This document shows positions 367 to 20,720 of a DNA stretch of 40,878 bases, in pieces. Every line of letters begins with the position of its first letter. Position 1 is the first letter of the stretch. Origin of the DNA: a virus. The notes below the pieces were generated by a model. It made no database searches. It saw only the letters and a program-made list of their open reading frames with translations, and was not told the origin of the DNA. The translations under genes and the position numbers were made by a program. The stretch lies in the UHGV virus genome UHGV-0182401; one strand, given 5' to 3'.

Positions 367-400
367 TGTAGAAAGACTGGATCAATCCACAGGAGTCATT

Positions 401-547
401 ATGACAAAACAACTCAGTCCTTACCAGGACAAAATTCACAAACACATACTACGTGATCGCTTCCTGTCCAGCTTCAAGCAGCCTGGTCGATTCCGGGCTG
501 AGTTGGAAAAAGTGAAGCTGATGCAGAAGGAGAAAGGTCATGAGTAA
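401..547 (+). CDS. Hypothetical small protein (48 aa)
   Basis: ATG preceded by AGGAG; stop overlaps the start of the O-like gene. Below the ORF-track size cutoff. Confidence 0.3.
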
Positions 548-1439
548 CATATCTAATCTAGCCGAAGCCAGAGAGGCCAGAAGGCTACAACAACCGCATC
601 AAAGCAGCGGTAAGGGGTATGCCTTGCTGCACCGTAAAATTATGGATGTGCCGTTTTACAAGGACGCAGAAGCTGCGCATCTGTGGGTTCACTTAATCCT
701 CAAAGCAAAGCATACGCCTGAGTATGTAATGACTGACGCAGGAGAAATTCTGGTAGGCAGAGGGAAGCTACTTGGCGGTAGAAACTCTCTGGCGTTTGAA
801 ACAGGACTCAAACCAGATCGCGTTCAGTACCTGCTTAGAAAGTTCAAAAAACTCGGCATGATTGACTGGGTTTCACACGGTAAATTCTCAGTTTTCTCGG
901 TAGAGAAATATGACGATTATCAGTCAAATTTTGTACCAGCAGATTACCAGCAAATTACCACCTCAAAGCCAGCAATACCAATGCCTGCAAGCAATACTGT
1001 ACCAGCAGATTACCAGCAAATTACCACAGATAAAGAATATAATAATATTATCTCTAATACTGACGTATTAGAGAGTACCGCAGCAGACAAAAAGTCTGAC
1101 AAGAAAAAACCTTCCGTTAGCTGTCAGGATGTTGTCGATGCTTACCACGAAATCCTTCCTGAAGCGCCAAGAATCCGCGCACTGAATGACAAGCGTAAAA
1201 ACCAGATCCGAACGTTCTGGCGCAAAGCCGGAGTGATAACCCGCCAGCTTGACGGGCATGGGTTCACGATGCAGGACTGGAGAAATTATTTGAGCTACGT
1301 AGGCGAAAATTGCCGATGGATGTTCGAAGAGCGTCCAAACCATCAACGCGGAACTGTCTGGCACAAAAAGGGATTTGATTTCCTGCTTAACGATAATACC
1401 TACCTGAAAGTTCGTGAGGGTGAACACGATGACCGATAA
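540..1439 (+). CDS. Replication initiation protein (lambda O / P22 gp18 functional analogue)
   Basis: Sits between cII and the DnaB-like helicase; carries internal direct repeats plus an AT-rich tract like ori-lambda inside O. Family assignment is by position and architecture, not strong sequence recall. Confidence 0.7.
932..1075 (+). repeat. Candidate replication origin: two perfect 30-bp direct repeats (932-961, 998-1027) with ACCAGCA/ATTACCA sub-repeats, then an AT-rich tract (1028-1075)
   Basis: Repeats read directly from the sequence (TGTACCAGCAGATTACCAGCAAATTACCAC twice); each encodes [10 protein letters not shown] in the initiator. Confidence 0.6.
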
Positions 1440-2865
1440 TTTTTATGCGCCGCCCCATAGCATCGAGGCAGAGCAGGCGGTGATTGGTGGATTGCTTCTG
1501 GATGATGACAGCAGTGAGCGCGTCCAGAAAGTTCTGGCGATGCTGAAGCCTGATTCATTTTACAGCCGACCACACAAAATCATTTTCGAAGAAATAACCA
1601 GAATGCACCGTGAGCAAAAGCCAGTAGATGGCCTGACGCTTTTCGATGAACTGGAGCGTAAATCGTTAACTGTGTCTGTTGGCGGTTTTGCTTATATAGC
1701 TGAGATCGCAAAGAACACGCCAAGCGCCGCAAACATCGTTGCCTATGCAATGCAGGTTCGCGAAACCGCAATGGAACGCTACGCCATCAACCGCATGACT
1801 GAAGCGACGGAATTGCTCTATTCCCGCAACGGAATGACTGCGACGCAGAAGTACGAAGCTATTCAGTCGATTTTCACGCAACTGACAGACCATGCAAAAA
1901 CCGGATCGCGTCGCGGCCTTCGCTCATTTGGTGAGGTTATGGAAGACTGGGTTAGCGACCTTGAGAAGCGATTTGACCCGTCAGGCGAACAACGAGGAAT
2001 GAGCACAGGGATCCCATCGCTGGACAGGATGCTGTCACCGAAAGGTCTGGTGAAAGGCTCTCTGTTTGTCATTGGCGCTCGCCCTAAGATGGGGAAAACG
2101 ACGCTATACAGCCAGATGGCAATCAACTGCGCAGTGCATGAGAAAAAGCCCGCTCTGATGTTCAGCCTTGAAATGCCCGGTGACCAGATACTGGAAAAAC
2201 TGGTAGGACAGAAGTCAGGTGTTAACCCGAATATTTTTTACCTTCCGGCGACAAATGACGCTGATGACGGCTATCAGGGTGATTACGATGGTGACTTCAA
2301 CAGGGCGATCGAAACAGCCAATCGCTTGAGTGAAATCGACCTGCTTTACATCGACGACACGCCGGGATTATCTCTGGCTCAAATAGTCAGCGAAAGTCGT
2401 CGAATCAAGCGAGAAAAAGGATGTGTTGGCATGATTCTGGTCGATTACCTGACACTAATGACTGCTGAGAAGGCCGATCGCAACGACCTTGCTTACGGCA
2501 TGATCACCAAAGGACTGAAGAACCTTGCCAAAGAGCTTGATTGCGTTGTTGTGCTTCTGACGCAGCTTAACCGCGCACTGGAAAGCAGAACCAATAAACG
2601 CCCATTACCAAGTGACTCACGAGATACAGGGCAGATTGAACAGGATTGCGATTATTGGGTGGGGATCCATCGTGAAGGTGCTTTTGATGACAGTGTTCCA
2701 CCTGGTGAAACCGAACTAATCCTTCGTCTCAATCGTCATGGCAATACCGGCACGGTGTATTGCATTCAGGCAAATGGCTCTATTTATGACACAGACCAAC
2801 AGTCCGCTGAAATGCGCCGCCGTGAACGCGAGGAACCGCAATCCAAGAAGAAAGGAGGATTCTGA
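1429..2865 (+). CDS. DnaB-family replicative helicase
   Basis: N-terminal SIEAEQAVIGGLL motif and Walker-type GARPKMGKT typical of DnaB; start chosen at the ATG after GAGGGTG. Confidence 0.85.
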   Translation: MTDNFYAPPHSIEAEQAVIGGLLLDDDSSERVQKVLAMLKPDSFYSRPHKIIFEEITRMHREQKPVDGLTLFDELERKSLTVSVGGFAYIAEIAKNTPSAANIVAYAMQVRETAMERYAINRMTEATELLYSRNGMTATQKYEAIQSIFTQLTDHAKTGSRRGLRSFGEVMEDWVSDLEKRFDPSGEQRGMSTGIPSLDRMLSPKGLVKGSLFVIGARPKMGKTTLYSQMAINCAVHEKKPALMFSLEMPGDQILEKLVGQKSGVNPNIFYLPATNDADDGYQGDYDGDFNRAIETANRLSEIDLLYIDDTPGLSLAQIVSESRRIKREKGCVGMILVDYLTLMTAEKADRNDLAYGMITKGLKNLAKELDCVVVLLTQLNRALESRTNKRPLPSDSRDTGQIEQDCDYWVGIHREGAFDDSVPPGETELILRLNRHGNTGTVYCIQANGSIYDTDQQSAEMRRREREEPQSKKKGGF

Positions 2866-6263: not shown

Positions 6264-6423
6264 AACTGAGCCGTAGCCACTGGCTATCCTGAATTCATCA
6301 GTGATAGTTACGCTGCGGCCTTCTACACATGACCTTCGTGAAAGCGGGTGGTTCAATTCTGCTGTCTTCTTCACGTTAAAAGAGGAATTAGGCTTCGAAA
6401 ATGCAAAAACTTGCAAAAATGAC

Positions 6424-6452
6424 TTGAAAACGAGTTTTGAAACTGCATAATT
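6424..6452 (+). promoter_or_regulatory. Candidate late promoter (pR-prime-like): TTGAAA-N17-ATAATT
   Basis: Near-consensus -35/-10 with 17-bp spacer, downstream of Q and about 80 nt upstream of a strong terminator. Confidence 0.5.
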
Positions 6453-6534
6453 CCTATATGCTCGGACGTCAAAGGCGAAAGAGCTTACCCACCAGCGAAG
6501 ATGCCTTGTGCGGAGCGGTGGGAAACACATTCAA

Positions 6535-6565
6535 GCCCTTGCAGAAATGCAGGGGCTTTTTTATT
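6535..6565 (+). terminator. Intrinsic terminator (tR-prime-like)
   Basis: GCCCTTGCA-GAAA-TGCAGGGGC hairpin followed by TTTTTTATT; immediately upstream of the cargo cluster. Confidence 0.65.
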
Positions 6566-6592
6566 GGCTCAGTGCCACCAGGTGAACACCGT

Positions 6593-7144
6593 ATGCACAC
6601 GGCGATCATTTGCGCTTCCGGACCTTCCCTCACCCACGACGACTGCCAGAAAGCCATTGGCGCTGGATTACCCGTTATTGCGGTGAATTCTTCATGGCGC
6701 GCGGTGCCGGGATGCTCTCACATTTACGCGGGTGATCTGCGCTGGTGGGATGTGAACATTCCCGCGCTGCCCGATGGCCCCGAACGCTGGTCATGTAACC
6801 GGAGAGCACACACCCGATACGGCGTGAGCCTCTTCCCGACAGATACCAGCGGCACATTCAATTCGGGGCAGAGAGCAATCCTGTTCGCTCACTGGCTGGG
6901 TGCCAGTAGCATCATCCTTCTGGGCTTCGATTGCTCAATCTCAAACGGTAGTCACTGGCACGGCGATCACACAGTCCTCGATAACCCGACAGCAGCGAAC
7001 GTAAAGCGCTGGCATGGCGAGTTTGCCCGGGTTGCGGCGCAGCTGCGTGGAAGCGTCAATATCATCAACAGCAGCCGCCAGACGGCGCTTAATTGCTTTC
7101 GTCGCTTACCTCTTGAAGCTGCGATCAGCGAGGTTACATGCTGA
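6593..7144 (+). CDS. Cargo protein of unknown function (183 aa)
   Basis: ATG with GGTGA ribosome-binding site just after the terminator; the 6437 track start would run through the promoter and terminator. No confident family match. Confidence 0.55.
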   Translation: MHTAIICASGPSLTHDDCQKAIGAGLPVIAVNSSWRAVPGCSHIYAGDLRWWDVNIPALPDGPERWSCNRRAHTRYGVSLFPTDTSGTFNSGQRAILFAHWLGASSIILLGFDCSISNGSHWHGDHTVLDNPTAANVKRWHGEFARVAAQLRGSVNIINSSRQTALNCFRRLPLEAAISEVTC

Positions 7145-8079
7145 ATCCTCCGATTTACATCGATGGCATGCTGGGAATGGGAGATACCATTTACCAGCGC
7201 GCTTTCGTCAAACAACTGCCTGCTGGGACATTCATTAAGACGGCATGGCCGGAGCTTTACGAAGATCTGCCGGTGAAAGTTGTCCGAAGTGACACCACGC
7301 TCAGAACGCAGCGTAAAAATGAGTTTCGCAGTTCGGCAAAGTTTTATCCGCCGCCATCGCCACGACAGACGAAGCGAATATTTTACGGACCGTATGATCT
7401 GCGGCGCGGTTCGATATTTGATGCGATGCGACGCCAGTTCGGCGTAACGCCAGCAGCGCTTGATTTGCCATCCTTTGGCCCGTCGCAGTTTACGCACCAA
7501 AAGCCGATCGCCGTTATCCGTCCGGCAACGGTTCGTTCTGAATGGCGTAGCGACTCCCGAAACCCTGACCCCGATTACCTCCTGCGCGCATCGAGAATCC
7601 TGCGGAAACATTTCTGCGTGATTAGCGTTGCTGATTTGCAGGACGGGGAAGAGTGGCTGGTGGGTGAAGAACCAGAGGCGGATCTGAAAATGCACGCTGG
7701 CGAGCTCAATATCAAAGAGCTGATGCGCCTGGTTGAGCATGCCGCTGTCGTGGTTACGCCTGTTGGCTGGGCGCTGCCCGCTGCCATTGCGTACAAAACA
7801 CCTGTTTACGTTGTCGCTGGTGGGCGCGGTGGGCATAACGCTCCCGAGATAGTCACCGATCCGGCGATGGATTTATCCCGCGTTGGCTGGGCAATCCCGG
7901 ACAATTATTGTCGCTGCGAAGCGTGGGATCACCATTGCGACAAACGCATCTTCAACTTTGATTCAAAATTCGAGACATGGCTGAATGAAGTCGTTTTATC
8001 AGGAACTGAACAGCGGGCTGGTATTCCTCCCGGAGCTGGGCATCGGTCGTTATCCGGTTCCGGCATCACGCCCGTATGA
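7138..8079 (+). CDS. GT-B fold glycosyltransferase-like protein (GT9/heptosyltransferase-like motifs)
   Basis: N-terminal GMGD-type motif and C-terminal VVVTPVGWALPAAIAYKTPVYVVAGG resemble GT9 motifs; 7-nt overlap with the upstream gene. Confidence 0.55.
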   Translation: MLNPPIYIDGMLGMGDTIYQRAFVKQLPAGTFIKTAWPELYEDLPVKVVRSDTTLRTQRKNEFRSSAKFYPPPSPRQTKRIFYGPYDLRRGSIFDAMRRQFGVTPAALDLPSFGPSQFTHQKPIAVIRPATVRSEWRSDSRNPDPDYLLRASRILRKHFCVISVADLQDGEEWLVGEEPEADLKMHAGELNIKELMRLVEHAAVVVTPVGWALPAAIAYKTPVYVVAGGRGGHNAPEIVTDPAMDLSRVGWAIPDNYCRCEAWDHHCDKRIFNFDSKFETWLNEVVLSGTEQRAGIPPGAGHRSLSGSGITPV

Positions 8080-8599
8080 CGAGCAGTATTTCGCGAAGTA
8101 TCAGCAGCTTGCCGACACCGAAACAGGCAGAGCCTTAACGCAATCCCGTATTGAGCTGGTGGCGCGCCATTTTCACGGTCCTGTTCTCGACGTTGGTATC
8201 GGTGCCGGTCAGTTCGTCTCTACCCGACCGGGAACGCTTGGGTATGACATTAATCCGGCTGGTATCGCCTGGCTGAACGAGCGGGGCGCATTCGCTGACC
8301 TCTACGCCAGTCAGTGGCGCGCGCTGACGATGTGGGATGTCCTGGAGCACATCGACGAGCCGGAGCTGGCGGTACAGCAGGCTACAGAGTTTGTTTTCGT
8401 GTCGATCCCCATTTTTACCGATGCCGGAGACATTCTTCGCTCGCACCATTTCAGGAAGAACGAGCACATCTGGTATTTCACTGACGACGGTATTAAGCGC
8501 TGGTTTGCAGAGCAGGGCTTCGAATGCGCTGAACAGAACACAATCGAATGCCAGTTAGGGCGTAAGGGCGTCGCTTCGTACGCTTTCCGCCGCGTTTAG
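7985..8599 (+). CDS. Class I SAM-dependent methyltransferase
   Basis: Motif I VLDVGIGAGQF and downstream WDVLEHIDEP typical of the Rossmann-fold methyltransferases; only in-frame ATG is at 7985, giving a 95-nt overlap with the upstream gene. Confidence 0.7.
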   Translation: MKSFYQELNSGLVFLPELGIGRYPVPASRPYDEQYFAKYQQLADTETGRALTQSRIELVARHFHGPVLDVGIGAGQFVSTRPGTLGYDINPAGIAWLNERGAFADLYASQWRALTMWDVLEHIDEPELAVQQATEFVFVSIPIFTDAGDILRSHHFRKNEHIWYFTDDGIKRWFAEQGFECAEQNTIECQLGRKGVASYAFRRV

Positions 8600-8673
8600 T
8601 CCCCTCTTAGCCCATTGCATTTGGGTTTATTCCAGTTTCGCACACATCACCCGCAAACAGGCGAGGTCAACCT

Positions 8674-8832
8674 ATGAATAGCTCTCACGGGATTTTTGAA
8701 CAAACCATGAAATGGATCGCGCTATATCTGCCGTCAGTTTACGCCGGGTTATGCGCTCTGGGCATCTCAGCGCTTATCGACATACGCGCAGGGAAGCCGA
8801 AACTCTACACCGCCACTGGCGCGCTAAATTAA
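8674..8832 (+). CDS. Small hydrophobic protein (52 aa, one predicted transmembrane helix)
   Basis: ATG with GAGGT ribosome-binding site; hydrophobic stretch WIALYLPSVYAGLCALGISALI; just upstream of the holin. Below the ORF-track cutoff. Confidence 0.4.
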   Translation: MNSSHGIFEQTMKWIALYLPSVYAGLCALGISALIDIRAGKPKLYTATGALN

Positions 8833-8863
8833 ATAGAGCAAATCCCCTTATTGTGGGTAAGAC

Positions 8864-9187
8864 ATGAAGATGCCAGAAAAACATGACCTGTTAGCCGCCA
8901 TTCTCGCGGCAAAGGAACAAGGCATCGGGGCAATCCTTGCGTTTGCAATGGCGTACCTTCGCGGCAGATATAATGGCGGTGCGTTTACAAAAACAGTAAT
9001 CGACGCAACGATGTGCGCCATTATCGCCTGGTTCATTCGTGACCTTCTCGACTTCGCCGGACTAAGTAGCAATCTCGCTTATATAACGAGCGTGTTCATC
9101 GGCTACATCGGTACTGACTCGATTGGTTCGCTTATCAAACGCTTCGCTGCTAAAAAAGCCGGAGTAGAAGATGGTGGAAATCAATAA
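8864..9187 (+). CDS. S: Holin, lambda S type
   Basis: 107 aa, essentially identical to remembered lambda S, including the MKM dual-start motif. Confidence 0.9.
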
Positions 9188-9647
9188 TCAACGTAAGGCG
9201 TTCCTCGATATGCTGGCGTGGTCAGAGGGAACTGATAACGGACGTCAGAAAACCAGAAATCATGGTTATGACGTCATTGTAGGCGGAGAGCTATTCACTG
9301 ATTACTCTGATCACCCTCGCAAACTTGTCACGCTAAATCCGAAACTCAAATCAACAGCCGCCGGACGCTACCAGCTTCTTTCCCGTTGGTGGGATGCCTA
9401 CCGCAAGCAGCTTGGCCTGAAAGACTTCTCTCCGAAAAGCCAGGACGCTGTGGCATTGCAACAGATTAAAGAGCGTGGCGCTTTACCGATGATTGACCGC
9501 GGTGATATTCGTCAGGCAATCGACCGTTGCAGCAATATCTGGGCTTCACTGCCGGGCGCTGGTTATGGCCAGTTCGAGCATAAGGCTGACAGCCTGATTG
9601 CAAAATTCAAAGAGGCTGGCGGAACGGTCAGAGAGATTGAGGTATGA
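9171..9647 (+). CDS. R: Endolysin, lambda R type (lytic transglycosylase)
   Basis: 158 aa, near-identical to remembered lambda R. Confidence 0.9.
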
Positions 9648-10081
9648 GCAGAGTCACCGCGATTATCTCCGCTCTGGTTATCTGCATCATCGTTTGCCTG
9701 TCATGGGCTGTTAATCATTACCGGGATAACGCCATCGCCTACAAAGCCCAGCGCGACAAAGCCACATCCATCATCGCTGACATGCAGAAGCGTCAACGTG
9801 ATGTAGCAGAACTTGACGCCAGATACACAAAGGAGCTTGCTGATGCTAACGCGACTATCGAAAGTCTCCGTGCTGATGTTTCTGCTGGTCGTAAGCGCCT
9901 GCAAGTCGCCGCCACCTGTGCAAAGTCAACGACCGGAGCCAGCAGCATGGGCGATGGAGAAAGCCCAAGACTTACAGCAGATGCTGAACTCAATTATTAC
10001 CGTCTCCGAAGTGGAATCGACAGGATAACCGCGCAGGTTAACTACCTGCAGGAATACATCAGGACGCAATGCCTGAAATAA
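9644..10081 (+). CDS. Rz: Rz spanin (inner-membrane subunit)
   Basis: N-terminal transmembrane segment and strong match to lambda Rz in the first 40 residues. Confidence 0.85.
9843..10028 (+). CDS. Rz1: Rz1 spanin lipoprotein, embedded in the +1 frame of Rz
   Basis: Signal peptide [20 protein letters not shown] with lipobox VSAC and a proline-rich mature region, wholly inside Rz. Confidence 0.7.
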
Positions 10082-10279
10082 TTTTTTTGCAAATCACAAA
10101 GTCAATTTAATGAGCCTCGCGATGCGGGGCTTTTTATATCTGAATTTCACAGCGCATCTCACGCGCATATTAACGAGAGCCTTTCAGTAAGCGAGCCTGA
10201 GAAATGCCGTTATAGGTGGCGACCTCTCTCGGGCGGCTTTTCTGTGAGACAGGCTCACTTTCTAAAAGGTAAAGACGCT

Positions 10280-10798
10280 ATGAATCATCAATTGGCTAAT
10301 CTCGATTTCCGGGACATGGTGGTTGTTTCTGGTGATCGCGTGATCACAACCTCCCGCAAGGTAGCAGCTTACTTCGACAAGCAGCATCACCACATCATTC
10401 AGAAAATCGAAAAGCTAGACTGTTCGGATGAATTTCTAACCAGCAACTTTTCGCGGGTTACCTATGAACACAAGGGTAATCAGTATGTTGAATATGAAAT
10501 TTCCAAAGACGGCGCGATGTACATCATCATGTCGTTTACCGGCAAAAAAGCTGCCGCCATCAAAGAGGCGTTTATCAAAGCATTTAATTGGATGCGTGAC
10601 AGGCTGATGGAGATGGCTCACTCATACCAAAGAGAGCACAACGAGTTAATGCTGGAGTTCATGAAGGAAAAGGATGTTGCCAGTATGTCAGGACGCTTGC
10701 TGAACCGCTGGGGCAGGATCAAAAAACCGCAACTCATAGCAAGAATCGAAAGGCTTGAGCAGCAGGCGCAAATATCGATCCCCGGACTGCCAAAGTGA
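10280..10798 (+). CDS. rha: Rha-family phage regulatory protein
   Basis: N-terminal region resembles the Rha domain; start chosen at MNHQLANL. Confidence 0.65.
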   Translation: MNHQLANLDFRDMVVVSGDRVITTSRKVAAYFDKQHHHIIQKIEKLDCSDEFLTSNFSRVTYEHKGNQYVEYEISKDGAMYIIMSFTGKKAAAIKEAFIKAFNWMRDRLMEMAHSYQREHNELMLEFMKEKDVASMSGRLLNRWGRIKKPQLIARIERLEQQAQISIPGLPK

Positions 10799-11150
10799 CC
10801 ATTCCAAAGCCCATCTACGGGTGGGCTTGATAATGAAACCGTGATTTACATCCCCACAATCCGGGTATGTAAAAGATAGTTCAGGCGAGAACAGATTTAA
10901 CTAAATCTGTGCACCACCAGTTACGGCAGTACCACGAAGCAACCCAAGCCAGTAAGTGGGGAAATAACACTGGCAGCCACTGAAAGATGAACCTCCAGCC
11001 TTATGGCAAAAAAGATTCTTTGTGGTGGCGGGCTGATGGAAAGACATCGGTTATTGCAGAGACCATTCAATGAGTGGTCTCGACAATGGCTTATACCCTA
11101 CACGGGATAACTTAACTGATATCCCTTTTAACGGATAAACGGAGCCAATA

Positions 11151-11648
11151 ATGGCAAAGCTCACAGACAAACAAGAGCTGTTTGCCCATCCGGATGATGT
11201 GTATGTCGGAGAGTGTGTGATTTATACCGGCTACATAAATAAGCGAGGGTATGGGCAGAAGCACATTTCACGAAAGCCGCACTACGCACATCGAATCGCA
11301 TACTGCGAAGCTAACGGAATTTCGCTAGATAGCATCAAGGACCTGGTTGTTAGGCATAAATGCGATAATCCATCATGCGTGAATCCTGACCATCTGATTA
11401 TAGGTACTGTCGCTGACAATAATCGTGACAGGTCAAGGCGAGGCAGAAACTCATACCCTGACCGTTCAGGTGAAAAGAACGGAATGGCGAAATTAAAAGA
11501 GTGCGATGTCATCTGCATTCGACGTGAATATGTCCGCGGGAGCATTGGTAGGGGGCTTAGATCCTTATCAGAGAAATATGGCGTATCGACGACCATGATT
11601 GCTGACATCGTTAATTATAGAAATTGGAGCAACGTTTCGGGGGTGTGA
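11151..11648 (+). CDS. HNH endonuclease
   Basis: HRIAY...HKCDNPSCVNPDHL HNH motif; immediately upstream of the terminase genes. Confidence 0.75.
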   Translation: MAKLTDKQELFAHPDDVYVGECVIYTGYINKRGYGQKHISRKPHYAHRIAYCEANGISLDSIKDLVVRHKCDNPSCVNPDHLIIGTVADNNRDRSRRGRNSYPDRSGEKNGMAKLKECDVICIRREYVRGSIGRGLRSLSEKYGVSTTMIADIVNYRNWSNVSGV

Positions 11649-11649
11649 T

Positions 11650-12204
11650 TTGAAACAGCTCACACCTAAGCAGGAACTGTTCTGCCGGGAATATTTAAAA
11701 GATTTAAACGCCACTCAGGCAGCTATCAGGGCGGGTTACAGCGAGAAAACTGCTCGCGCCACTGGTAGCGAGAACCTGTCAAAACCTGACATAGCAGATC
11801 GCATTGCTGAGCTAAAGGCTGAACGCAATGAAGAGGTAGGTATAGACGCTGCCTATGTATTGCGACGGCTGACTGAAATCGATCAGATGGACGTGCTTGA
11901 CATTCTGCTTGCCAATGGCGAACTGAAGCCCATTAAAGACTGGCCTAAGGTATGGCGCACAACGCTATCAGGAATGGATGTCGTCGAGATGGCATCAGCA
12001 GATAGTGCTGCTCTCCTGAAGAAAATCAAATGGCCTGATAAGGTTAAAAACCTTGAGTTGCTCGGGCGTCATGTTTCTGTTCAGGCGTTTAAAGACAATG
12101 TCAAAAATGAAGTGACTGGTGCTGACGGAGGACCAGTCAGAACAGAAATTACCAACTTAACGCCGGAGCAGGCTGCAGAAGCGTATAAAAAAATGATGGG
12201 CTAA
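11650..12204 (+). CDS. Terminase small subunit
   Basis: [28 protein letters not shown] helix-turn-helix region typical of small terminase; start ambiguous (TTG at 11650 after GGGGGTG, or TTG at 11599). Confidence 0.7.
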
Positions 12205-12206
12205 GT

Positions 12207-13829
12207 ATGCCGTTACCATTTCCCTTCGATTTTAAACATCCTGATTACCAGATGGTTTTTGAATGGCGGATGGAACGCTTACAGCGCATTCGCCAGAACC
12301 CTGAAATATTGCCAGCACTAAAACAGTTTTACCGAACCAACCCGGCTCAGTTCATCATCGACTGGGGCATGACAACGGACCCGCGTAATATTGATTATGG
12401 CCTGCCGGTGACCATTCCGTTTTTACTCTTCCCTAAGCAGGAGGAGTGGATCCACTGGATTATGGAACGCTGGGGCAATCGGGAGAATGGTATTACCGAA
12501 AAATCCCGTGAAATGGGACTCAGTTGGACCGCGATCGGACTGGCCTGCTCGCTTTGTCTCTTCAACAAAGAAATGGTCATCGGCTTCGGCTCCCGTAAAG
12601 AGGAATACGTCGACAGCACCGGTGACCCGAAGGCGCTGTTCTGGAAGGCGCGAAAGTTCGTGGAAACACTGCCCATCGAGTTTCGTGGTTCGTGGGACGA
12701 GAAGAAGCATGCGCCGTATATGCGCGTTGAGTTTCCAGATACTGGCGCGGTTATCAAAGGCGAGGCTGGCGACAATATCGGACGTGGTGACCGTACCACG
12801 CTCTACCTGGTGGATGAAGCTGCATTCCTCCAGCGTCCTCTGTTGATTGATGCGGCGCTGTCGCAAACCACCCGTTGCCGTATTGACCTGAGCTCGGTTA
12901 ATGGCATGGCGAACCCGTTCGCGCAGAAGCGCCACGGCGGAAAAATACCAGTATTCACGTTCCACTGGCGAGATGACCCGCGCAAGGATGAAGAGTGGTA
13001 TCGCAGGGAGTGCGAGAAAATCGACAATCCGGTGGTGGTGGCGCAGGAACTTGACCTGAACTACAGCGCATCTGCGGAAGGCGTCCTGATCCCGTCCGAC
13101 TGGGTACAGGCTGCCGTCGACGCGCATATCAAACTTGGTATTCAGCCAACGGGCAAGCGACTGGGCGCGATGGACGTCGCCGACGAAGGCAGGGACAAAA
13201 ATTCCTTTTCCACCCGTCATGGCTTCCTCCTGGAGAATGTGCGGGAATGGTCCGGTGTGGGCAGCGACATTTATCAGTCCGTCGAGAAGGTCTTCGGTTT
13301 TTGCGAACAGGACAACCTCGAAGAGTTTCGCTTTGACGAGGACGGGCTGGGCGCTGGCGTTCGCGGCGATGCACGCGCTATCAACGAACTGCGTAACGCT
13401 GCGCGCCGACCGTCAATACTCGCCACACCGTTTCGAGGTAGTGGCGCGGTATTTGATCCGGATGATGAAGCTATTCGCGGGGACAACGGGCAAGCCGCCC
13501 GCCTGAACAAGGACTTCTTCGCTAACGCCAAGGCCCAGAGCTGGTGGCGGTTACGTAAACTTTTTCAGAATACCTGGCGCGCCGTGGTTGAAGGTATGGC
13601 TTACAACCCGGACGAAATCATCTCAATCAGCAGTAGCATGGCACTCAAAGATAAACTCATCATCGAGCTTTCGCAGCCGACCTATTCCATTAATGGTGTG
13701 GGAAAAATCGTTATTGATAAACAGCCTGACGGCACCAAGTCGCCGAACCTCGCCGACTCGGTGATGATCAGCTACGCGCCAATGAATTCAGCCCTGAACA
13801 TCTGGGAGCTGCTAGGGAGACAGGCCTGA
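12207..13829 (+). CDS. Terminase large subunit
   Basis: 540 aa directly after the small subunit; ATPase and nuclease-like regions. Confidence 0.8.
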
Positions 13830-15295
13830 TGGCACGAAACAAGCAAGCCTCTCAGCGAACGGCGCAGGCCACCGCTGATGGCTACGAGAACTTTGTCGCC
13901 CGCGTGGGGATGCAGACGCCTAACCAGCATTCAGCATCGACCTACCGGGCGAACTTCACCAGCCGCAACCGCATGCTGGTGGAATGGTCCTATCGTTCGT
14001 CCTGGATCATCGGCGAAGCGGTCGACGCTATCCCGGATGATATGACCCGCAAAGGCATTCGCATTACTTCGGAAATTGATGCAAAAGATCGCGGCATTCT
14101 CGAATCACAACTTGATGAGTTGCAGATCTGGGATGCGCTGAACGACGTGCTGAAATGGTCTCGCCTCTACGGCGGCGCGGTCGGCTTCATCATGATCGAG
14201 GGGCAGGCACCAATGACCCCGCTGCGGCTCGAAACCATTGGAGAAGGCAAGTTTAAGGGCATTCTCCCGCTTGACCGCTGGATGATTAACCCGGTGCTGA
14301 CCCGTCGCATTAAAGAGATGGGGCCAGATCTCGGCAAACCTGAGTTTTACGACGTGGTGACCACTGCAACGGGCATCCCGGCCTGGCGCATCCATCACAG
14401 CCGCCTGATTCGCTTCGACGGGGTGACGCTACCATTCCAGCAGAAGATGACCGAAAACGAATGGGGAATGTCGGTTGTAGAGCGTATCTGGGATCGGCTT
14501 ACTGCGTTCGACAGCGCCACTGTCGGCGCGGCGCAGCTTGTCTACAAAGCGCATCTGCGTACCTACAAAGTGAAAAAACTCCGTGAGCTTATTGCGCTGG
14601 GTGGCCCCGCGTTCGAAGCGCTGCTGAAGAACATCGATCTGATTCGCCAGTTCCAGAGCAATGAAGGCATGACGCTGATGGATTCCGAAGATACTTTCGA
14701 AACCCACCAGTACAGCTTCAGTGGTCTGGATGACATTCTTTCGCAGTTCGCTGAGCAGATCAGCGGTGCCGTTGGTATCCCGCTGGTACGCCTGTTCGGT
14801 CAATCCCCGAAAGGCTTCTCTACTGGTGATGCAGACCTCGCCAACTATTACGACCGGGTGAGTTCATTGCAGGAGCGCCGCTTACGGATTCCGATGCGCC
14901 GGATACTGGACATTATGCACCGCTCGGAACTCGGTAAGCCGCTGCCGGACGATTTCACGTTTGAGTTTAACCCGCTCTGGCAAATGTCTGATGTCGATCG
15001 CTCAACGGTGGCGTTAAACACTACCAACGCAATCAGTACGGCGCTGGGTGATGGTCTGATGACACTGAAAGCCGCTATGACCGATTTGCGCGAAAATTCT
15101 GACGTAACCGGCATCGGGGCATCCATTACCGACGAGGACATAGAGAATGCCGAAGACGAAGCGCCGCCAGGCATCGGCGAACTTGGCGACAAACCGCCAG
15201 AGTCGCCAGGCGGAGATCCGATATCGAACGAGCCTACGGCAGATAGCGCGGGCGGTCGGGGATATCGTAAATGGGCGCTACGATGGTTCAAATGA
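13829..15295 (+). CDS. Portal protein
   Basis: 488 aa following the large terminase with ATGA start overlap; size and position. Confidence 0.75.
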   Translation: MARNKQASQRTAQATADGYENFVARVGMQTPNQHSASTYRANFTSRNRMLVEWSYRSSWIIGEAVDAIPDDMTRKGIRITSEIDAKDRGILESQLDELQIWDALNDVLKWSRLYGGAVGFIMIEGQAPMTPLRLETIGEGKFKGILPLDRWMINPVLTRRIKEMGPDLGKPEFYDVVTTATGIPAWRIHHSRLIRFDGVTLPFQQKMTENEWGMSVVERIWDRLTAFDSATVGAAQLVYKAHLRTYKVKKLRELIALGGPAFEALLKNIDLIRQFQSNEGMTLMDSEDTFETHQYSFSGLDDILSQFAEQISGAVGIPLVRLFGQSPKGFSTGDADLANYYDRVSSLQERRLRIPMRRILDIMHRSELGKPLPDDFTFEFNPLWQMSDVDRSTVALNTTNAISTALGDGLMTLKAAMTDLRENSDVTGIGASITDEDIENAEDEAPPGIGELGDKPPESPGGDPISNEPTADSAGGRGYRKWALRWFK

Positions 15296-15920
15296 TAGCG
15301 TTACCGAAATAATGGATGCGCTGGAGCGCTACAGCGAAATCATCACCCCCTGGGCGACTAAGGTTGCTGAGAGCTTCACCGCCGACATTGCGCGCCAGAA
15401 TGAAAAGCAGTGGCGTCAACACAGCCGGAACATCAGCGCAGAGCTGCGCAACATGGTTGACCGCGCCCCGGTAGGCCAGGTGATGAAATCCATCGTCGCC
15501 GAGCAAATTAAGTACATCAAATCTCTGCCTCTTGAGGCCGCCGATCGGGTGTATGACATTCAGAACAAGGCCATCGAGGCCGTTGTGTCTGGTGGCCGCG
15601 CTGAACCATTCGCGAAAGAGATAGCAGCGTCCGGTGACGTGTCACGCTCACGAGCGAACCTTATCGCCCGGACTGAGCTTGGGCGCGCAACCGGCGCGCT
15701 CGATCAGGCGCGTGCGCTGTCAATCGGCTCGAATGGTTATATCTGGCGTACAGCCGAAGATGGCGACGTCCGGCATTCTCATCGAGAGATGGAAGGGAAG
15801 TTTGTCGAATGGGGCCGACCTCCAACGCTTGACGGCATGACCGGTCACGCTGGCGAGCTCCCGAACTGCCGCTGTTACAAAGAAATCGTCTTCCCCAACC
15901 CTCATTCTTATCTCGCCTGA
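15147..15920 (+). CDS. Head morphogenesis protein (Mu F-like)
   Basis: C-terminal TAEDGDVRHSHREMEG...NCRCY motif characteristic of the Mu F family; start uncertain because of the overlap with portal. Confidence 0.7.
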   Translation: MPKTKRRQASANLATNRQSRQAEIRYRTSLRQIARAVGDIVNGRYDGSNDSVTEIMDALERYSEIITPWATKVAESFTADIARQNEKQWRQHSRNISAELRNMVDRAPVGQVMKSIVAEQIKYIKSLPLEAADRVYDIQNKAIEAVVSGGRAEPFAKEIAASGDVSRSRANLIARTELGRATGALDQARALSIGSNGYIWRTAEDGDVRHSHREMEGKFVEWGRPPTLDGMTGHAGELPNCRCYKEIVFPNPHSYLA

Positions 15921-15934
15921 ATCGCAGGTAAACC

Positions 15935-17155
15935 ATGAAATATTTTTTCAATACCCGGCTGGGGGAAACCCGCTATCAGCTGGCTGACGGCTCGTTGCTG
16001 TGCAAAGACGTGCCGATAGGACGAACAGGTAAGCAGCTCTATGGTGCTGATGACCTGCCAAAACTGAAACCCGATAAGTTCGGTGAAATAGTCGTCACGC
16101 GTTCTCCTGAGCAGGTATTCCATCCCGCCACGCTTGCCTCATTCGAAGGAATGAGTATCACGGTGTTGCATCCCGAGGATGAAAACGGGGATGTGCGGCT
16201 GGTCAACCCCGAGAACTGGAAAGAGCTTGCGGTCGGGCATCTTCAGAACGTTCGGCGCGGGACTGGTGATCAGTCTGATTTGATGCTGGCTGACCTTATC
16301 GTCAAAGACGAAAGCGCCATTCAGCTTATCGAAGATGGCCTGCGTGAAGTGTCGTGTGGCTATGACGCGGAGTACGAGCAGACCGAGCCAGGTAAAGCCG
16401 AGCAGGTCGATATTACCGGAAACCATGTGGCTCTTGTCCCTAAAGGCAGAGCCGGAAATCGTTGTGCAATTGGAGACAGAGACACAATGGCAAATCAAAA
16501 GAAAAGCTGGTGGACCCGCATGCGCACGGCCATCAAAACGGGTGACGCTGACACCATGAACGAACTGCTGGACTCTGCGCCAGCGGCGGTAACGGGTGAC
16601 GAAGGGGATCTGCCGAGCGGCGTTAACCTCAACATTAACCTTTCACCGCAGCAACCATTGCCGGACAAAAAGCCGGAAATGGGCGGAGAGCCAACCGGCG
16701 ACGGCGAGGACGATATCAAAACCTTGCTTAAAGCCCTGCTGGCTAAGCTGGAAGGAAATGCGACGGGCGATAACGACAATAAGCCTGACGATAATCCGAC
16801 CGGTGACGGCGAGGACGATGAAGAGGAAACCACGATTACTGGTGACTCAGCCTGGCGTGCCGAAGTTATCGTTCCGGGTATCGATCTGAGCCGTAAGATG
16901 AAACCGACCGCGTTCAAACGCGAGGTTCTGGCTTCCGCTGACAAAACGCTGGTTCGCCAGATAGTCGGCGATGCGGATATCCGCAAATTGCCGAAACAAT
17001 CGGTCAACATGGCGTTTAATGCCGTGTCAGAGATTGCCAAAGGGCGAAACACCCGCAGCACCACGGGCGATGCACAACGTCCAAATATGGGCATGACCAG
17101 CATCGCTTCCCTGAACAAACAAAACGCCGACTTCTGGTCTAACCGCAAAGGATAA
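15935..17155 (+). CDS. Putative scaffolding/prohead protein
   Basis: 406 aa with an acidic low-complexity central region; position between head morphogenesis and capsid genes. Confidence 0.45.
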   Translation: MKYFFNTRLGETRYQLADGSLLCKDVPIGRTGKQLYGADDLPKLKPDKFGEIVVTRSPEQVFHPATLASFEGMSITVLHPEDENGDVRLVNPENWKELAVGHLQNVRRGTGDQSDLMLADLIVKDESAIQLIEDGLREVSCGYDAEYEQTEPGKAEQVDITGNHVALVPKGRAGNRCAIGDRDTMANQKKSWWTRMRTAIKTGDADTMNELLDSAPAAVTGDEGDLPSGVNLNINLSPQQPLPDKKPEMGGEPTGDGEDDIKTLLKALLAKLEGNATGDNDNKPDDNPTGDGEDDEEETTITGDSAWRAEVIVPGIDLSRKMKPTAFKREVLASADKTLVRQIVGDADIRKLPKQSVNMAFNAVSEIAKGRNTRSTTGDAQRPNMGMTSIASLNKQNADFWSNRKG

Positions 17156-17159
17156 TCCA

Positions 17160-17663
17160 ATGACTGCATATCTGTACCGGATGCCTGTTGGCATTGCCGG
17201 GGCTATCTCTCGCCCGCAGGACTTAACCGTCGAACCGGTGGTCCTTAAATCCGATAACGCCTTTGCTGCCTATGGGCTGGCTGGTAAATACGATGATGAC
17301 GGTTTTTTCGTGCCGCTGGAGGACGGTGACACCGCCGACAAGGTGAAGGGGATCTACGTTCGTCCGTATCCGACCACATCGCAGCCAGACATGGTTCGCC
17401 AGGTGGGGACGGATAAGAATTTCCCGGGCGACGCCATGAAACGTGGCTACATGACCGTTAACCTTGGATCTGGCTTCGATGCCAGCACCATCAAAAAAGG
17501 TGATCCTGTCTACGTGGTCGTTTCGCTCGATTCAACCATTGACGTGCCGCTGGGCGGCTTCATGTCCACGTCCGTCAGTGGCAAAAACGTGGCGCTGACC
17601 AACGCCGAATTCACAGGGGCCGGTGACGCTAACGGCAATGCAGAAATCTCCTGGAAGATTTAA
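17160..17663 (+). CDS. Head structural protein
   Basis: 167 aa immediately upstream of the major capsid gene. Confidence 0.45.
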   Translation: MTAYLYRMPVGIAGAISRPQDLTVEPVVLKSDNAFAAYGLAGKYDDDGFFVPLEDGDTADKVKGIYVRPYPTTSQPDMVRQVGTDKNFPGDAMKRGYMTVNLGSGFDASTIKKGDPVYVVVSLDSTIDVPLGGFMSTSVSGKNVALTNAEFTGAGDANGNAEISWKI

Positions 17664-17674
17664 GGAACAGACGA

Positions 17675-18616
17675 ATGATTACTTTTGATCAGGCAACAGT
17701 TGATAGCTCTGGTGCCTTTCTCATCGGGGAGCTGGAGCGACTCGACCAGACGCTGAACCTGCCACTGGTGGGGTACACCTGGACCCGCGATATCCAACTG
17801 CGTGAAGATGTCTCCATCGCAGATGACATTTCCAGCTGGACGAATACCAGCTTCGCCGCTGCGGGTACTGGCGCAAATCCGAATGGCAAAAACTGGGTAG
17901 GCAAAGACTCAACCGCTATTGCTGGCGTAAACGTGGATATCGGCAAATCCGGTAACCCGCTGAATCTCTGGGGCATGGAACTGGGCTGGACCGTTGTAGA
18001 GCTGGCAGCAGCTCAGCAGGTAGGTCGCCCGATTGACACCCAGAAGTACGACGGGATGCAGCTCAAATGGCAGATGGACAACGACGAGCAGGTGTATGTT
18101 GGCGATTCCGCATTAAACCTGAAAGGCCTTGTTACCCTGAACGGTGTTCCTGTCAACAACGCTGCCAAAACGTGGGCAACCTCAACACCGGACGAAATCC
18201 GCGCAAGCATTAACCAGGTGCTGTCTGATGCGTGGGCCGCTTCTGGTTACTCTGTGGTTCCGCGTGATTTGCTGATCCCGCCAGAGCAGTTTGCTCTGTT
18301 GTCCAGCATCATCGTTTCATCTGCGGGTAACCAGTCCCTGTTGACGTACCTTCAGACCAACACCATCAGCTATCACCAGAACGGTGTTCCGCTGAATATC
18401 CGCGCGGTTAAATGGCTGAAAGGCCGTGGTGTGGGGAATAAGGATCGCATGGTTGCGTACACCAACGATAAAAAATACGTCCGCTATCCGCTGGTGCCGT
18501 TGCAGAGCGTTCCTATCCAGTATCGCGGTCTGTATCAGATTGCGACCTACTACGGCAAGCTCGGTGCGGTTGAGCCAGTGTACAAAGAAACCATTTCGTA
18601 CGTTGATGGCATTTAA
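17675..18616 (+). CDS. Major capsid protein
   Basis: 313 aa in the capsid position, followed by a strong GC hairpin. Confidence 0.7.
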   Translation: MITFDQATVDSSGAFLIGELERLDQTLNLPLVGYTWTRDIQLREDVSIADDISSWTNTSFAAAGTGANPNGKNWVGKDSTAIAGVNVDIGKSGNPLNLWGMELGWTVVELAAAQQVGRPIDTQKYDGMQLKWQMDNDEQVYVGDSALNLKGLVTLNGVPVNNAAKTWATSTPDEIRASINQVLSDAWAASGYSVVPRDLLIPPEQFALLSSIIVSSAGNQSLLTYLQTNTISYHQNGVPLNIRAVKWLKGRGVGNKDRMVAYTNDKKYVRYPLVPLQSVPIQYRGLYQIATYYGKLGAVEPVYKETISYVDGI

Positions 18617-18623
18617 CAGCCAT

Positions 18624-18644: not shown

Positions 18645-18657
18645 TAAGGATGACCCA

Positions 18658-20717: not shown

Positions 20718-20720
20718 ACT

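What the first reader, a model, noticed from the sequence alone, without database searches (positions are those of the whole stretch)
932..1075. Replication origin embedded in the initiator gene: perfect 30-bp direct repeats plus an AT-rich tract
Two identical 30-bp repeats, each containing ACCAGCA and ATTACCA sub-repeats, are followed by about 50 bp of AT-rich DNA, all inside the O-like initiator coding sequence. This is the same architecture as ori-lambda; the repeats also encode a duplicated [10 protein letters not shown] peptide, probably an interdomain linker.
Basis: partly seen in the sequence, partly recalled or inferred. Interest (0 to 1): 0.4.

Follow-up and report, generated by a model that had tools for sequence, protein, structure and literature searches.

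The report
Phage replication origin inside initiator gene
The repeats are almost certainly the replication origin of an HK022/VT2-Sakai-type lambdoid phage, sitting inside its own initiator gene; public records of sister phages already annotate these same repeats as the origin, so it is real but ordinary.

Summary
A perfect 30-bp direct repeat lies at 932-961 and 998-1027, 66 bp apart, inside a 299-aa initiator gene (540-1439). A very AT-rich tract follows.

Each block holds three head-to-tail 11-bp units (TACCAGCARAT, the third partial). Tract 1028-1050 (8.7% GC) is the least stable duplex in the whole window. A perfect 10+10 palindrome follows at 1051-1074.

The origin reading is well supported by comparison with relatives:
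- In 139 related loci, the unit sequence follows the clade of the initiator's N-terminal domain (57/57, 37/37, 9/9).
- The C-terminal domain instead follows the helicase or loader gene downstream.
- The iteron blocks are islands of DNA conservation inside a variable, disordered linker.
- The palindrome keeps pairing through compensatory changes at all 10 pairs.

It is not new. The gene is 98-99.7% identical to "O" of HK022, HK620, mEp235 and VT2-Sakai. The VT2-Sakai and HK620 records mark exactly these repeats as "ori iteron 1/2" and "rep_origin".

It works like ori-lambda, but the initiator is not a lambda O homologue. It is a winged-helix protein nearer the SPP1 G38P type, and its iterons are 11-bp direct units. 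I found no experimental proof for this origin type.

The parts
540..1439 (+). Initiator gene (299 aa), called 'O' in HK022, HK620 and VT2-Sakai and Eru3A in Stx phages. It contains the origin.
   Evidence: ORF. phrog_345 'replication initiation O-like', E 5.6e-88. 99.2-99.7% nucleotide identity to O of mEp235, VT2-Sakai, Stx2 phage 86 and CP-1639. No Pfam Phage_rep_O hit. Named Eru3A in PMC8044961.
615..920 (+). Coding region of the N-terminal winged-helix DNA-binding domain (residues 26-127), the presumed iteron reader.
   Evidence: AlphaFold2 gives pLDDT above 90 over residues 30-120, with helix-helix-beta-helix-helix-beta-beta topology. Foldseek matches winged-helix regulators (CodY, ArsR/SmtB, CAP), E about 5e-3. 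22 of 92 relatives hit Pfam PF09681 Phage_rep_org_N.
934..961 (+). Iteron block 1: 11-bp units TACCAGCAGAT (934-944), TACCAGCAAAT (945-955) and the partial unit TACCAC (956-961). It lies within the perfect 30-bp repeat 932-961.
   Evidence: 79% invariant columns among 11 divergent relatives, against 26% in the adjacent spacer.
962..999 (+). Variable spacer between the blocks. It keeps the 11-bp register (block starts 66 = 6 x 11 bp apart) and holds one degenerate unit, AGCCAGCAATA (967-977).
   Evidence: 11-bp register print; only 26% invariant columns.
1000..1027 (+). Iteron block 2: TACCAGCAGAT (1000-1010), TACCAGCAAAT (1011-1021), TACCAC (1022-1027). It lies within the perfect 30-bp repeat 998-1027 and abuts the AT-rich tract.
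   Evidence: 86% invariant columns.
1028..1050 (.). AT-rich tract AGATAAAGAATATAATAATATTA (8.7% GC), the presumed DNA unwinding element.
   Evidence: the least stable 31-bp duplex of the whole window starts at 1029 (4.5 sd below the mean); the GC dip. An AT-rich minimum (GC 0.15-0.25 over 40 bp) sits at about the same offset in almost all enterobacterial relatives.
1051..1074 (.). Perfect palindrome TCTCTAATAC-TGAC-GTATTAGAGA (10-nt arms, 4-nt centre), a third origin element.
   Evidence: Either strand folds as single-stranded DNA at -7.5 or -7.6 kcal/mol, z -4.3 and -4.1. Across 34 distinct variants all 10 pairs change on both sides, 97.4% of cells pair against 61% in shuffles, and the 9 inner pairs show no wobble. 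Lambda has a 12-nt-arm palindrome with a 4-nt centre at the equivalent place.
1113..1436 (+). Coding region of the initiator's C-terminal domain, the presumed helicase-recruiting part.
   Evidence: The C-domain family tracks the downstream gene. The window type goes with a DnaB-type helicase in 116 of 116 interpretable loci. The lambda-O-type C-terminus goes with a lambda-P-type loader in 6 of 6. Model confidence for this domain is low.
1429..2865 (+). DnaB-type replicative helicase gene ('P' of HK022 and VT2-Sakai; Eru3B). It overlaps the initiator stop by 11 nt.
   Evidence: Pfam DnaB (1.5e-31) and DnaB_C (3.1e-60). The start at 1429 follows the VT2-Sakai annotation. No loader gene follows: the next genes are NinB, NinF, Rha/ANT, YbcO and RusA.

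Best explanation
This is the theta-replication origin of a lambdoid phage that carries the HK022/HK620/VT2-Sakai ('Eru3') replication module. It is embedded in the linker-coding part of its own initiator gene.

Shown by sequence and comparison:
- Six head-to-tail 11-bp units are arranged 3 + 3 in one helical register (11 bp per unit, block starts 66 bp apart).
- A 23-bp tract follows directly and is the least stable duplex of the window.
- A perfect 24-bp palindrome follows that.
- The unit sequence changes together with the initiator's N-terminal winged-helix domain.
- The C-terminal domain changes together with the helicase or loader gene downstream.

Inferred mechanism:
- Winged-helix N-domains bind the units one per helical turn on one face of the DNA. 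Because the units are direct repeats without dyad symmetry, binding is probably head-to-tail.
- The resulting nucleoprotein complex, with negative supercoiling, melts the adjacent AT-rich tract.
- The C-terminal domain brings in the phage's own DnaB-type helicase, with no separate loader.
- The palindrome probably acts as a structure (hairpin or cruciform) at the edge of the bubble, because its stems are free to change while pairing and the T(A/G)A(C/A) centre are kept.
- The duplicated [10 protein letters not shown] peptide is a by-product of origin DNA being translated as a disordered linker.
For: 1. The two repeats are annotated as 'ori iteron 1/2' bound by O protein in VT2-Sakai (AP000422.1) and as rep_origin in HK620 (NC_002730.1). 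Both sets of coordinates map exactly to 932-961 and 998-1027.
2. The 11-bp period is not a multiple of 3. The same unit is therefore translated in three frames (GTA CCA GCA GAT / TAC CAG CAA ATT / ACC ACC), which a peptide repeat cannot explain.
3. In 139 related loci the N-domain cluster predicts the iteron core one to one: 57/57 TACCAGCA-type (56 TACCAGCA, 1 the overlapping ATTACCAG), 37/37 TGTCCAGC, 9/9 TGTCCAAC-type (5 TGTCCAAC, 4 the overlapping TTGTCCAA), others TGCCAACA. The same N-cluster carries several palindrome and C-domain types. Adjusted mutual information is 0.86 for N-cluster against iteron and 0.51 for C-cluster against iteron.
4. The 3 + 3 layout, 66-bp spacing, AT-rich tract and palindrome recur in relatives down to about 43% protein identity. 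Distant relatives show 4-5 tandem 11-bp units followed by an AT-rich tract.
5. Among 11 divergent members of the window's own clade, the iteron blocks keep 79% and 86% invariant columns. The spacer keeps 26%, the N-domain 3' coding 57% and the C-terminal part 27-30%.
6. The AT-rich tract is the least stable duplex in 40.9 kb.
7. The palindrome co-varies at all 10 pairs without wobble pairs in the 9 inner pairs.
8. The N-domain is a confident winged helix and the origin-coding segment is disordered.
9. C-domain type pairs with the helicase or loader type in 116/116 and 6/6 loci. The Erwinia phage EhrS_59 joins this N-domain and iterons to a lambda-O-type C-terminus and a lambda-P-type loader.
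10. The phage L genome paper independently proposes six 11-bp repeats (TGTCCAACGGA) in gene 18 as that phage's origin (PMC8022706). ST64T gp18, 66% identical to the window protein, carries the same 11-bp unit.
Against: - I found no experiment (binding, footprint, origin cloning, replication mapping) for this origin type. The database annotations and the phage L statement are predictions.
- The strictly AT-rich tract is only 23 bp, against about 43 bp between the last iteron and the palindrome in lambda.
- Natural variants carry 1, 3 or 4 blocks, so two blocks are not strictly required. Whether the one-block prophage is viable is unknown.
- The loci are related and partly redundant, so co-variation counts overstate the number of independent events.
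- The palindrome segments were chosen by looking for the best inverted repeat, which favours pairing.
- A protein-level role for the repeated peptide is not excluded.
Confidence: 0.85

Rival explanations
1. The repeats are a protein-level duplication of a 22-residue linker module, for example a spacer, a partner-binding motif or a protease signal. On this reading the DNA has no function and the neighbouring AT-richness is incidental.
For: - The repeats are in frame as a 66-bp (22-aa) module and encode [10 protein letters not shown] twice.
- Module number varies from 1 to 4 in natural proteins of 277, 299, 321 and 343 aa.
- Relatives share a loose peptide pattern, [VC]P[AT][DE]xQ.
Against: - The 11-bp sub-period is out of frame, so one DNA unit gives three different peptides.
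- The peptide lies in a segment predicted to be disordered.
- The peptide differs strongly between clades, while the DNA unit stays exact within each genome and tracks the N-domain clade.
- The 33-38-bp spacer inside the same module is poorly conserved, 26% invariant. This is the opposite of what a selected 22-aa module would show.
- The loose peptide pattern follows from the shared CCA(A/G)C DNA core.
Confidence: 0.05
2. The repeats are binding sites for the initiator but act mainly in control rather than initiation. They could drive autoregulation, titration or handcuffing of the initiator, as plasmid iterons do, while the true initiation site lies elsewhere in the genome.
For: - Iteron arrays have such control roles in plasmids (established knowledge).
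- Plasmid-borne ori-lambda iterons can inhibit lambda replication (PMC3349717).
- SPP1 G38P binds two separate sites, oriL and oriR.
Against: - The exact unit occurs nowhere else in the 40.9-kb window, so there is no second cluster.
- The repeats directly abut the least stable duplex of the window and a conserved palindrome. That is the full origin architecture seen in lambda.
- The window may not hold the whole phage genome, so a second site cannot be fully excluded.
Confidence: 0.07
3. The repeat is a neutral, recent tandem duplication or a recombination scar at a mosaic boundary between the N- and C-terminal gene modules, with no function.
For: - The region is a module junction. N-domain and C-domain types reassort around it.
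- Module copy number varies.
Against: - The same 3 + 3 layout with exact intra-genome identity recurs in many genera with different unit sequences. This requires maintenance rather than one recent accident.
- The blocks are the best conserved DNA of the region.
Confidence: 0.02

Closest known systems
Origin annotated in HK620 (NC_002730.1, rep_origin) and VT2-Sakai (AP000422.1, 'ori iteron 1/2'); same module in HK022, mEp235, Stx2 phage 86 and CP-1639 ('Eru3' replication region of Stx phages)
   Same: The element is essentially identical. The initiator gene is 98-99.7% identical, the same two 30-bp repeats sit at the same gene positions, and the same DnaB-type helicase lies downstream.
   Different: There is nothing of substance. 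HK022 has one mismatch that shortens the exact repeat to 26 bp. The public records mark only the two 30-bp repeats, not the 11-bp substructure, the AT-rich tract or the palindrome.
ori-lambda, inside gene O of phage lambda
   Same: - The origin lies in the middle of a 299-aa initiator gene, between the DNA-binding N-domain and the partner-binding C-domain.
- The order is iterons, then an AT-rich tract, then a palindrome with a 4-nt centre.
- The origin-coding part is a linker.
- The module sits downstream of cII and the oop region.
   Different: - The initiator is not a detectable homologue: BLASTP E 4.7, and Pfam Phage_rep_O hits lambda O but not this protein.
- Lambda has four 18-bp iterons with internal dyad symmetry. 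Here there are six 11-bp direct units with no inverted symmetry.
- The AT-rich tract is about half as long.
- The partner is a phage DnaB-type helicase rather than lambda P plus host DnaB.
Phage L / ST64T gene 18 origin (six imprecise 11-bp repeats TGTCCAACGGA; PMC8022706)
   Same: It is the same protein family (ST64T gp18 is 66% identical) and has the same 3 + 3 layout of 11-bp units, 66-bp spacing, AT-rich tract and palindrome.
   Different: The unit sequence differs (TGTCCAACGGA against TACCAGCARAT), matching a different N-domain clade. That origin is also only predicted.
SPP1 oriL inside gene 38, bound by the replisome organiser G38P
   Same: - The origin is embedded in the initiator's own gene.
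- Direct repeats ('AB boxes') lie next to an AT-rich unwinding element, the initiator has no AAA+ domain, and a DnaB-family helicase is encoded downstream (PMC5737612, PMC6316719).
- Relatives of the window protein hit the same Pfam N-terminal family, PF09681 (22 of 92).
   Different: - SPP1 has a separate helicase loader (G39P) and a second site (oriR). Neither was found here.
- The window protein itself is below threshold for PF09681 (E 0.13).
- SPP1 oriL is experimentally proven. This origin is not.

Membership tests
HK022/HK620/VT2-Sakai ('Eru3') replication module and its annotated origin | The initiator gene is near-identical to O of HK022, HK620 and VT2-Sakai. | tested here: met
   99.2-99.7% nucleotide identity over all 900 nt. 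98-100% protein identity.
HK022/HK620/VT2-Sakai ('Eru3') replication module and its annotated origin | Two 30-bp direct repeats lie at gene positions 393-422 and 459-488, annotated as the origin or its iterons. | tested here: met
   The VT2-Sakai misc_binding and HK620 rep_origin coordinates map to window 932-961 and 998-1027.
HK022/HK620/VT2-Sakai ('Eru3') replication module and its annotated origin | A DnaB-type helicase gene lies immediately downstream and overlaps the initiator stop. | tested here: met
   Pfam DnaB and DnaB_C on ORF 1414/1429-2865. The same arrangement is seen in all these records.
Lambda-type origin (ori-lambda) | The origin is embedded in the initiator gene between the N- and C-terminal domains. 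| tested here: met
   The repeats lie at residues 132-163 of 299, in a predicted disordered linker between a confident N-domain and the C-terminal part.
Lambda-type origin (ori-lambda) | An iteron array is followed by an AT-rich unwinding tract and then a palindrome. | tested here: met
   Lambda was analysed with the same tools.
Lambda-type origin (ori-lambda) | The initiator belongs to the lambda O family (Pfam PF04492 Phage_rep_O). | tested here: not met
   No PF04492 hit even at E up to 1, while lambda O scores 5.7e-36. BLASTP against lambda O gives E 4.7.
Lambda-type origin (ori-lambda) | Iterons are 18-19 bp long with internal dyad symmetry, each bound by an O dimer. | tested here: not met
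   The units are 11-bp direct repeats. No inverted repeat of 8 nt or more occurs in 900-1050, whereas the lambda iterons give several.
Lambda-type origin (ori-lambda) | The initiator binds the iterons and the fragment supports initiator-dependent replication. | not testable with these tools
   This needs EMSA or footprinting and an origin-cloning assay. No published test was found.
SPP1 G38P-type replisome organiser with in-gene origin | The N-terminal domain belongs to Pfam PF09681 (Phage_rep_org_N). | tested here: inconclusive
   The window protein scores E 0.13, 12.7 bits, against a cut-off of 23.3. 22 of 92 aligned relatives match, best E 2.7e-7. PHROG 'DnaD-like helicase loader' families hit at 4.8e-21 to 5.9e-08.
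SPP1 G38P-type replisome organiser with in-gene origin | Direct repeats plus an AT-rich unwinding element lie inside the organiser's own gene. | tested here: met
   The SPP1 description comes from PMC5737612.
SPP1 G38P-type replisome organiser with in-gene origin | A separate helicase-loader gene (G39P-like) lies between the organiser and the helicase. | tested here: not met
   The initiator and helicase genes overlap (1429-1439). Downstream genes are NinB, NinF, Rha/ANT, YbcO and RusA.
Iteron plasmid origins (Rep / DnaA-dependent) | DnaA boxes lie next to the iterons. | tested here: not met
   TTWTNCACA has no match anywhere in the window.

The most novel reading that the evidence does not exclude
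The most novel reading not excluded concerns the palindrome and the iteron code, not the repeats themselves.

The perfect palindrome just right of the unwinding tract could be a required structural DNA element. Its stems change freely but always with compensation, with no wobble pairs in the 9 inner pairs, and its T(A/G)A(C/A) centre is kept. It might act as a hairpin or cruciform that fixes the edge of the bubble, or that serves as the entry or priming site for the phage's loader-less DnaB-type helicase.

The one-to-one match between the 11-bp unit and the winged-helix clade would then be a natural, swappable origin-specificity code.

Neither point appears in the database annotations or in the papers I could read.
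Probability: 0.3. Interest if true: 0.5.

Novelty: already known. Interest (0 to 1): 0.22.

Why it matters
This replication module is very common. The exact 299-aa protein is recorded on more than 1000 contigs. It drives replication of medically relevant Shiga-toxin phages such as VT2-Sakai, where phage replication level affects toxin output.

Knowing the origin's real anatomy gives precise targets for the experiments still missing for this origin type. That anatomy is six 11-bp units, a 23-bp unwinding tract and a co-varying palindrome.

The case also shows that the lambda-style 'origin inside the initiator gene' layout is shared by initiators with no detectable sequence homology. For the scan itself the result is that the finding is correct but already annotated.

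Tried and rejected
- Homology of the initiator to lambda O: none by BLASTP or Pfam, so the name 'O' is positional.
- NCBIfam: no family.
- Sequence search of solved structures with the N-domain profile: nothing meaningful, best E 0.14 to an RNA polymerase subunit.
- Rfam scan of the whole window: no RNA family, so no known RNA explains the palindrome.
- DnaA boxes: none.
- RNA-hairpin reading of the palindrome: judged less likely. The 9 inner pairs show no G-T/G-U state in 34 variants, and both strands fold equally.
- Second iteron cluster elsewhere in the window: none.
- Testing whether the lambda-family palindrome also co-varies: the locus search returned only N-domains about 100% identical to lambda, so there was no diversity to test.
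- One of those contigs has the same length as the window (40878). BLAST shows no similarity, so this is a coincidence.
- Oberto et al. 1994 on the HK022 segment (PMC523588) is not held in the library. Clark 2001 (HK620), Makino 1999 (VT2-Sakai) and Juhala 2000 (HK022) were not in the search results. What those papers say about the origin is known to me only through the GenBank features.
- Within-type variation (35 distinct genes, at least 98% identical) was too small for a selection test, so I used the more divergent clade members instead.
Full report
**1. The observation**

The window begins with a lambdoid early-right operon:
- a CII gene at 88-366 (Pfam Phage_CII, 1.2e-42);
- a small DUF2740 gene at 401-547;
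- a 299-aa ORF at 540-1439;
- a DnaB-type helicase ORF at 1414/1429-2865, overlapping the previous stop.

Inside the 299-aa ORF, TGTACCAGCAGATTACCAGCAAATTACCAC occurs twice without mismatch, at 932-961 and 998-1027, 66 bp apart. Tandem Repeats Finder reports period 11 in both copies.

Printed in rows of 11, the region reads:
- TACCAGCAGAT / TACCAGCAAAT / TACCAC...
- then three poorly matching rows,
- then TACCAGCAGAT / TACCAGCAAAT / TACCAC...

That gives six head-to-tail units arranged 3 + 3 in one register.

The exact 11-mer occurs only here in 40.9 kb. With one mismatch allowed there are 6 matches against 1.17 expected, and no shuffle out of 100 reaches 6.

Directly after the last unit comes AGATAAAGAATATAATAATATTA (1028-1050, 8.7% GC). 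The least stable 31-bp duplex of the whole window by nearest-neighbour energies starts at 1029 (-27.7 kcal/mol; mean -43.0, sd 3.4).

It is a perfect palindrome with arms 1051-1060 and 1065-1074 and centre TGAC. As single-stranded DNA either strand folds at about -7.5 kcal/mol, z about -4.

**2. Already annotated**

The ORF is 99.2-99.7% identical in DNA to the 'O' gene of mEp235, VT2-Sakai, the Stx1 phage, Stx2 phage 86 and CP-1639. It is 98% identical in protein to HK022 and HK620 O.
- The VT2-Sakai record carries two misc_binding features, 'ori iteron 1' and 'ori iteron 2', bound moiety O protein. Their coordinates map exactly to 932-961 and 998-1027.
- The HK620 record carries a two-piece rep_origin over the same bases.
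- The ST64T gene 18 fetched here is 66% identical to the window protein and carries exactly that unit.
- Llarena et al. call this module Eru3 (Eru3A and Eru3B) in Stx phages but do not discuss the origin (PMC8044961).

I found no paper reporting binding or origin-function experiments for this origin type. The element is known, but only as a prediction.

**3. Is it really an origin? Comparative evidence**

I collected 139 usable related loci. They came from annotated phage records, one genome per bacterial species, and viral contigs, and were analysed with scripts.

(a) *Architecture.* In almost all enterobacterial relatives, down to about 43% protein identity, the same layout recurs:
- two blocks of three 11-bp units, 66 bp apart;
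- an AT-rich minimum (GC 0.15-0.25 over 40 bp) right after the second block;
- a palindrome with 9-11-bp stems.

Very distant relatives (a Bacteroidia genome and others) have 4-5 tandem 11-bp units followed by an AT-rich tract.

(b) *The unit sequence tracks the N-terminal domain.* N-domains were clustered at 75% identity.

| N-domain cluster | Loci | Iteron core |
|---|---|---|
| 0 (window type) | 57/57 | TACCAGCA-type (56 TACCAGCA, 1 the overlapping ATTACCAG) |
| 1 | 37/37 | TGTCCAGC |
| 2 | 9/9 | TGTCCAAC-type (5 TGTCCAAC, 4 the overlapping TTGTCCAA) |
| several further clusters | - | TGCCAACA |
| singletons | - | TCCCAGAA, AATCCAAA, GCCAACGA |

The same N-cluster carries several palindrome types and several C-domain types. 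Adjusted mutual information is 0.86 for N-cluster against iteron class and 0.51 for C-cluster against iteron class.

(c) *DNA-level selection.* Eleven divergent members of the window's own clade were aligned.

| Segment | Invariant columns |
|---|---|
| Iteron block 1 | 79% |
| Iteron block 2 | 86% |
| Spacer between blocks | 26% |
| 3' part of N-domain coding | 57% |
| C-terminal part | 27-30% |

The stretch ATTACCACAGATAA, spanning the last unit and the start of the AT tract, is invariant.

(d) *Frame.* Eleven is not a multiple of three. The unit is read as (G)TA CCA GCA GAT, then TAC CAG CAA AT(T), then (AT)T ACC AC(C). A repeat selected at peptide level cannot produce this.

(e) *The protein.* AlphaFold2, run with a 92-sequence alignment, gives:
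- a confident N-domain (residues about 26-127, pLDDT above 90) with winged-helix topology;
- pLDDT below 50 for residues 136-142 and 147-191, the stretch encoded by the origin.

Foldseek matches winged-helix DNA-binding domains (CodY, ArsR/SmtB, CAP) at E about 5e-3.

(f) *Modularity.*
- The window-type C-terminal domain is followed by a DnaB-type helicase in 116 of 116 interpretable loci.
- A lambda-O-type C-terminus is followed by a lambda-P-type loader in 6 of 6.
- Erwinia phage EhrS_59 joins this N-domain and its iterons to a lambda-type C-terminus and loader.

This is the classical division of labour. The N-domain reads the origin and the C-domain recruits the helicase system.

**4. The palindrome**

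Thirty-four distinct versions were aligned without gaps.
- All 10 stem pairs show changes on both sides.
- 97.4% of cells are paired, against 61% in shuffles and at most 46% when the partner is slid.
- The covariation score is 0.82 against 0.19.
- The 9 inner pairs show no one-sided (wobble) states.

The absence of G-T states and the equal folding of both strands point to a DNA-level rather than an RNA-level constraint.

The centre is conserved as T(A/G)A(C/A), while the stems differ even between phages with the same N-domain. The palindrome type follows the C-terminal side more than the N-terminal side (AMI 0.73 against 0.62), which may be simple linkage.

Caveats:
- The segments were picked as the best inverted repeat in each locus, which favours pairing.
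- The sequences are related.

Even so, a perfect stem of 9 bp or more at a fixed place in about 135 of 139 loci is far beyond chance.

Lambda has a palindrome with 12-nt arms and a 4-nt centre at the equivalent position. It is therefore part of the shared origin architecture. From memory, its function is not settled even in lambda.

**5. Mechanism**

Shown: the anatomy, the co-variation and the modularity described above.

Inferred, by analogy with lambda O and SPP1 G38P (PMC7466680 and PMC5737612):
- N-domains occupy the six units, one per helical turn on one face of the DNA. Binding is head-to-tail, because the units lack dyad symmetry.
- The complex, with supercoiling, opens 1028-1050.
- The C-domain delivers the phage DnaB-type helicase.

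No loader gene is present. The initiator and helicase genes overlap, and NinB, NinF, Rha/ANT, YbcO and RusA follow. No DnaA box occurs in the window.

The palindrome plausibly forms a hairpin or cruciform at the edge of the bubble. This is the weakest step.

**6. Comparison with known systems**

- *Identity.* It is the same element as the annotated HK620 and VT2-Sakai origin.
- *Function.* It works like ori-lambda.
- *Membership.* It fails two defining features of the lambda family. The initiator is not a Phage_rep_O protein. The iterons are not 18-19-bp dyad-symmetric sites.
- *Affinity of the N-domain.* It is nearer the SPP1 G38P 'replisome organiser' family. PF09681 is matched by 22 of 92 relatives, but the window protein itself is below threshold.
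- *Difference from SPP1.* There is no separate loader and no second binding region.

**7. Variation**

The 66-bp (22-aa) module occurs in different copy numbers among near-identical phages.

| Copies | Protein length | Example |
|---|---|---|
| 1 | 277 aa | L089 |
| 2 | 299 aa (dominant; on more than 1000 contigs) | window |
| 3 | 321 aa | L063, P0002 |
| 4 | 343 aa | P0001 |

This is as expected for unequal crossing-over between perfect repeats.

**8. Verdict**

- Novelty: already known, as a database prediction.
- Modest added value here: the 3 + 3 structure of 11-bp units, the one-to-one pairing of iteron and N-domain clade, the co-varying palindrome, and the finding that the initiator is not a lambda O homologue.
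- Interest is low to moderate.

Noticed in passing
window 376-408: ACTGGATCAATCCACAGGAGTCATTATGACAAA matches the 33-bp block at the oop promoter and 5' end that PMC3349717 reports as conserved in 23 lambdoid phages. The window probably encodes an OOP-like antisense RNA overlapping the end of cII. The Rfam gathering scan finds no family.
   Followed up: partly
L063 (viral contig), L089 (viral contig), proteins P0001 and P0002: Near-identical phages carry 1, 3 or 4 copies of the 66-bp origin module instead of 2, giving proteins of 277, 321 and 343 aa. Whether copy number changes origin strength, or whether the one-block prophage is viable, is unknown.
   Followed up: partly
L011 (Erwinia phage vB_EhrS_59), about locus positions 1280-1460: This is a natural hybrid. 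It has this family's N-domain, iterons and palindrome, followed by GTCAGAGAATTT (the left arm of the lambda palindrome) and a lambda-O-type C-terminus with a lambda-P-type loader. The recombination junction lies just right of the origin.
   Followed up: partly
L135 (viral contig), gene downstream of the initiator: The DnaB-type helicase ORF is longer than 679 aa. It has an insertion right after the Walker A motif (GARPKMGK-AMALDAKILLQDGSW...), which looks like an intein.
   Followed up: no
L059 (Bacteroidia MAG), L056, L061 (Prevotella): Distant relatives of the N-domain also have tandem repeats right after it. L059 has 4.5 x GAACAACGACC. L056 has 4.5 x GAACAACARAT before a tract with GC 0.075. 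L061 has 8 x 12-bp CAAACAAATGAG, which is in frame and could be a peptide repeat. This suggests that an in-gene origin is general for this initiator family.
   Followed up: partly
whole window: The hexamer TACCAS (both strands) occurs 62 times against 21 +/- 4 in dinucleotide-preserving shuffles. This is probably the general CCAG/CTGG excess of enterobacterial DNA and unrelated to the origin.
   Followed up: no
window 6348-24377: The rest of the window is a mosaic. The early-right operon is HK022 type, but the structural genes best match Citrobacter phage Omnitron (93%), Escherichia phages of the vB_EcoM-606R2 group and Salmonella phage SEN34. No phage record covers 80% or more of the first 25 kb.
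   Followed up: no
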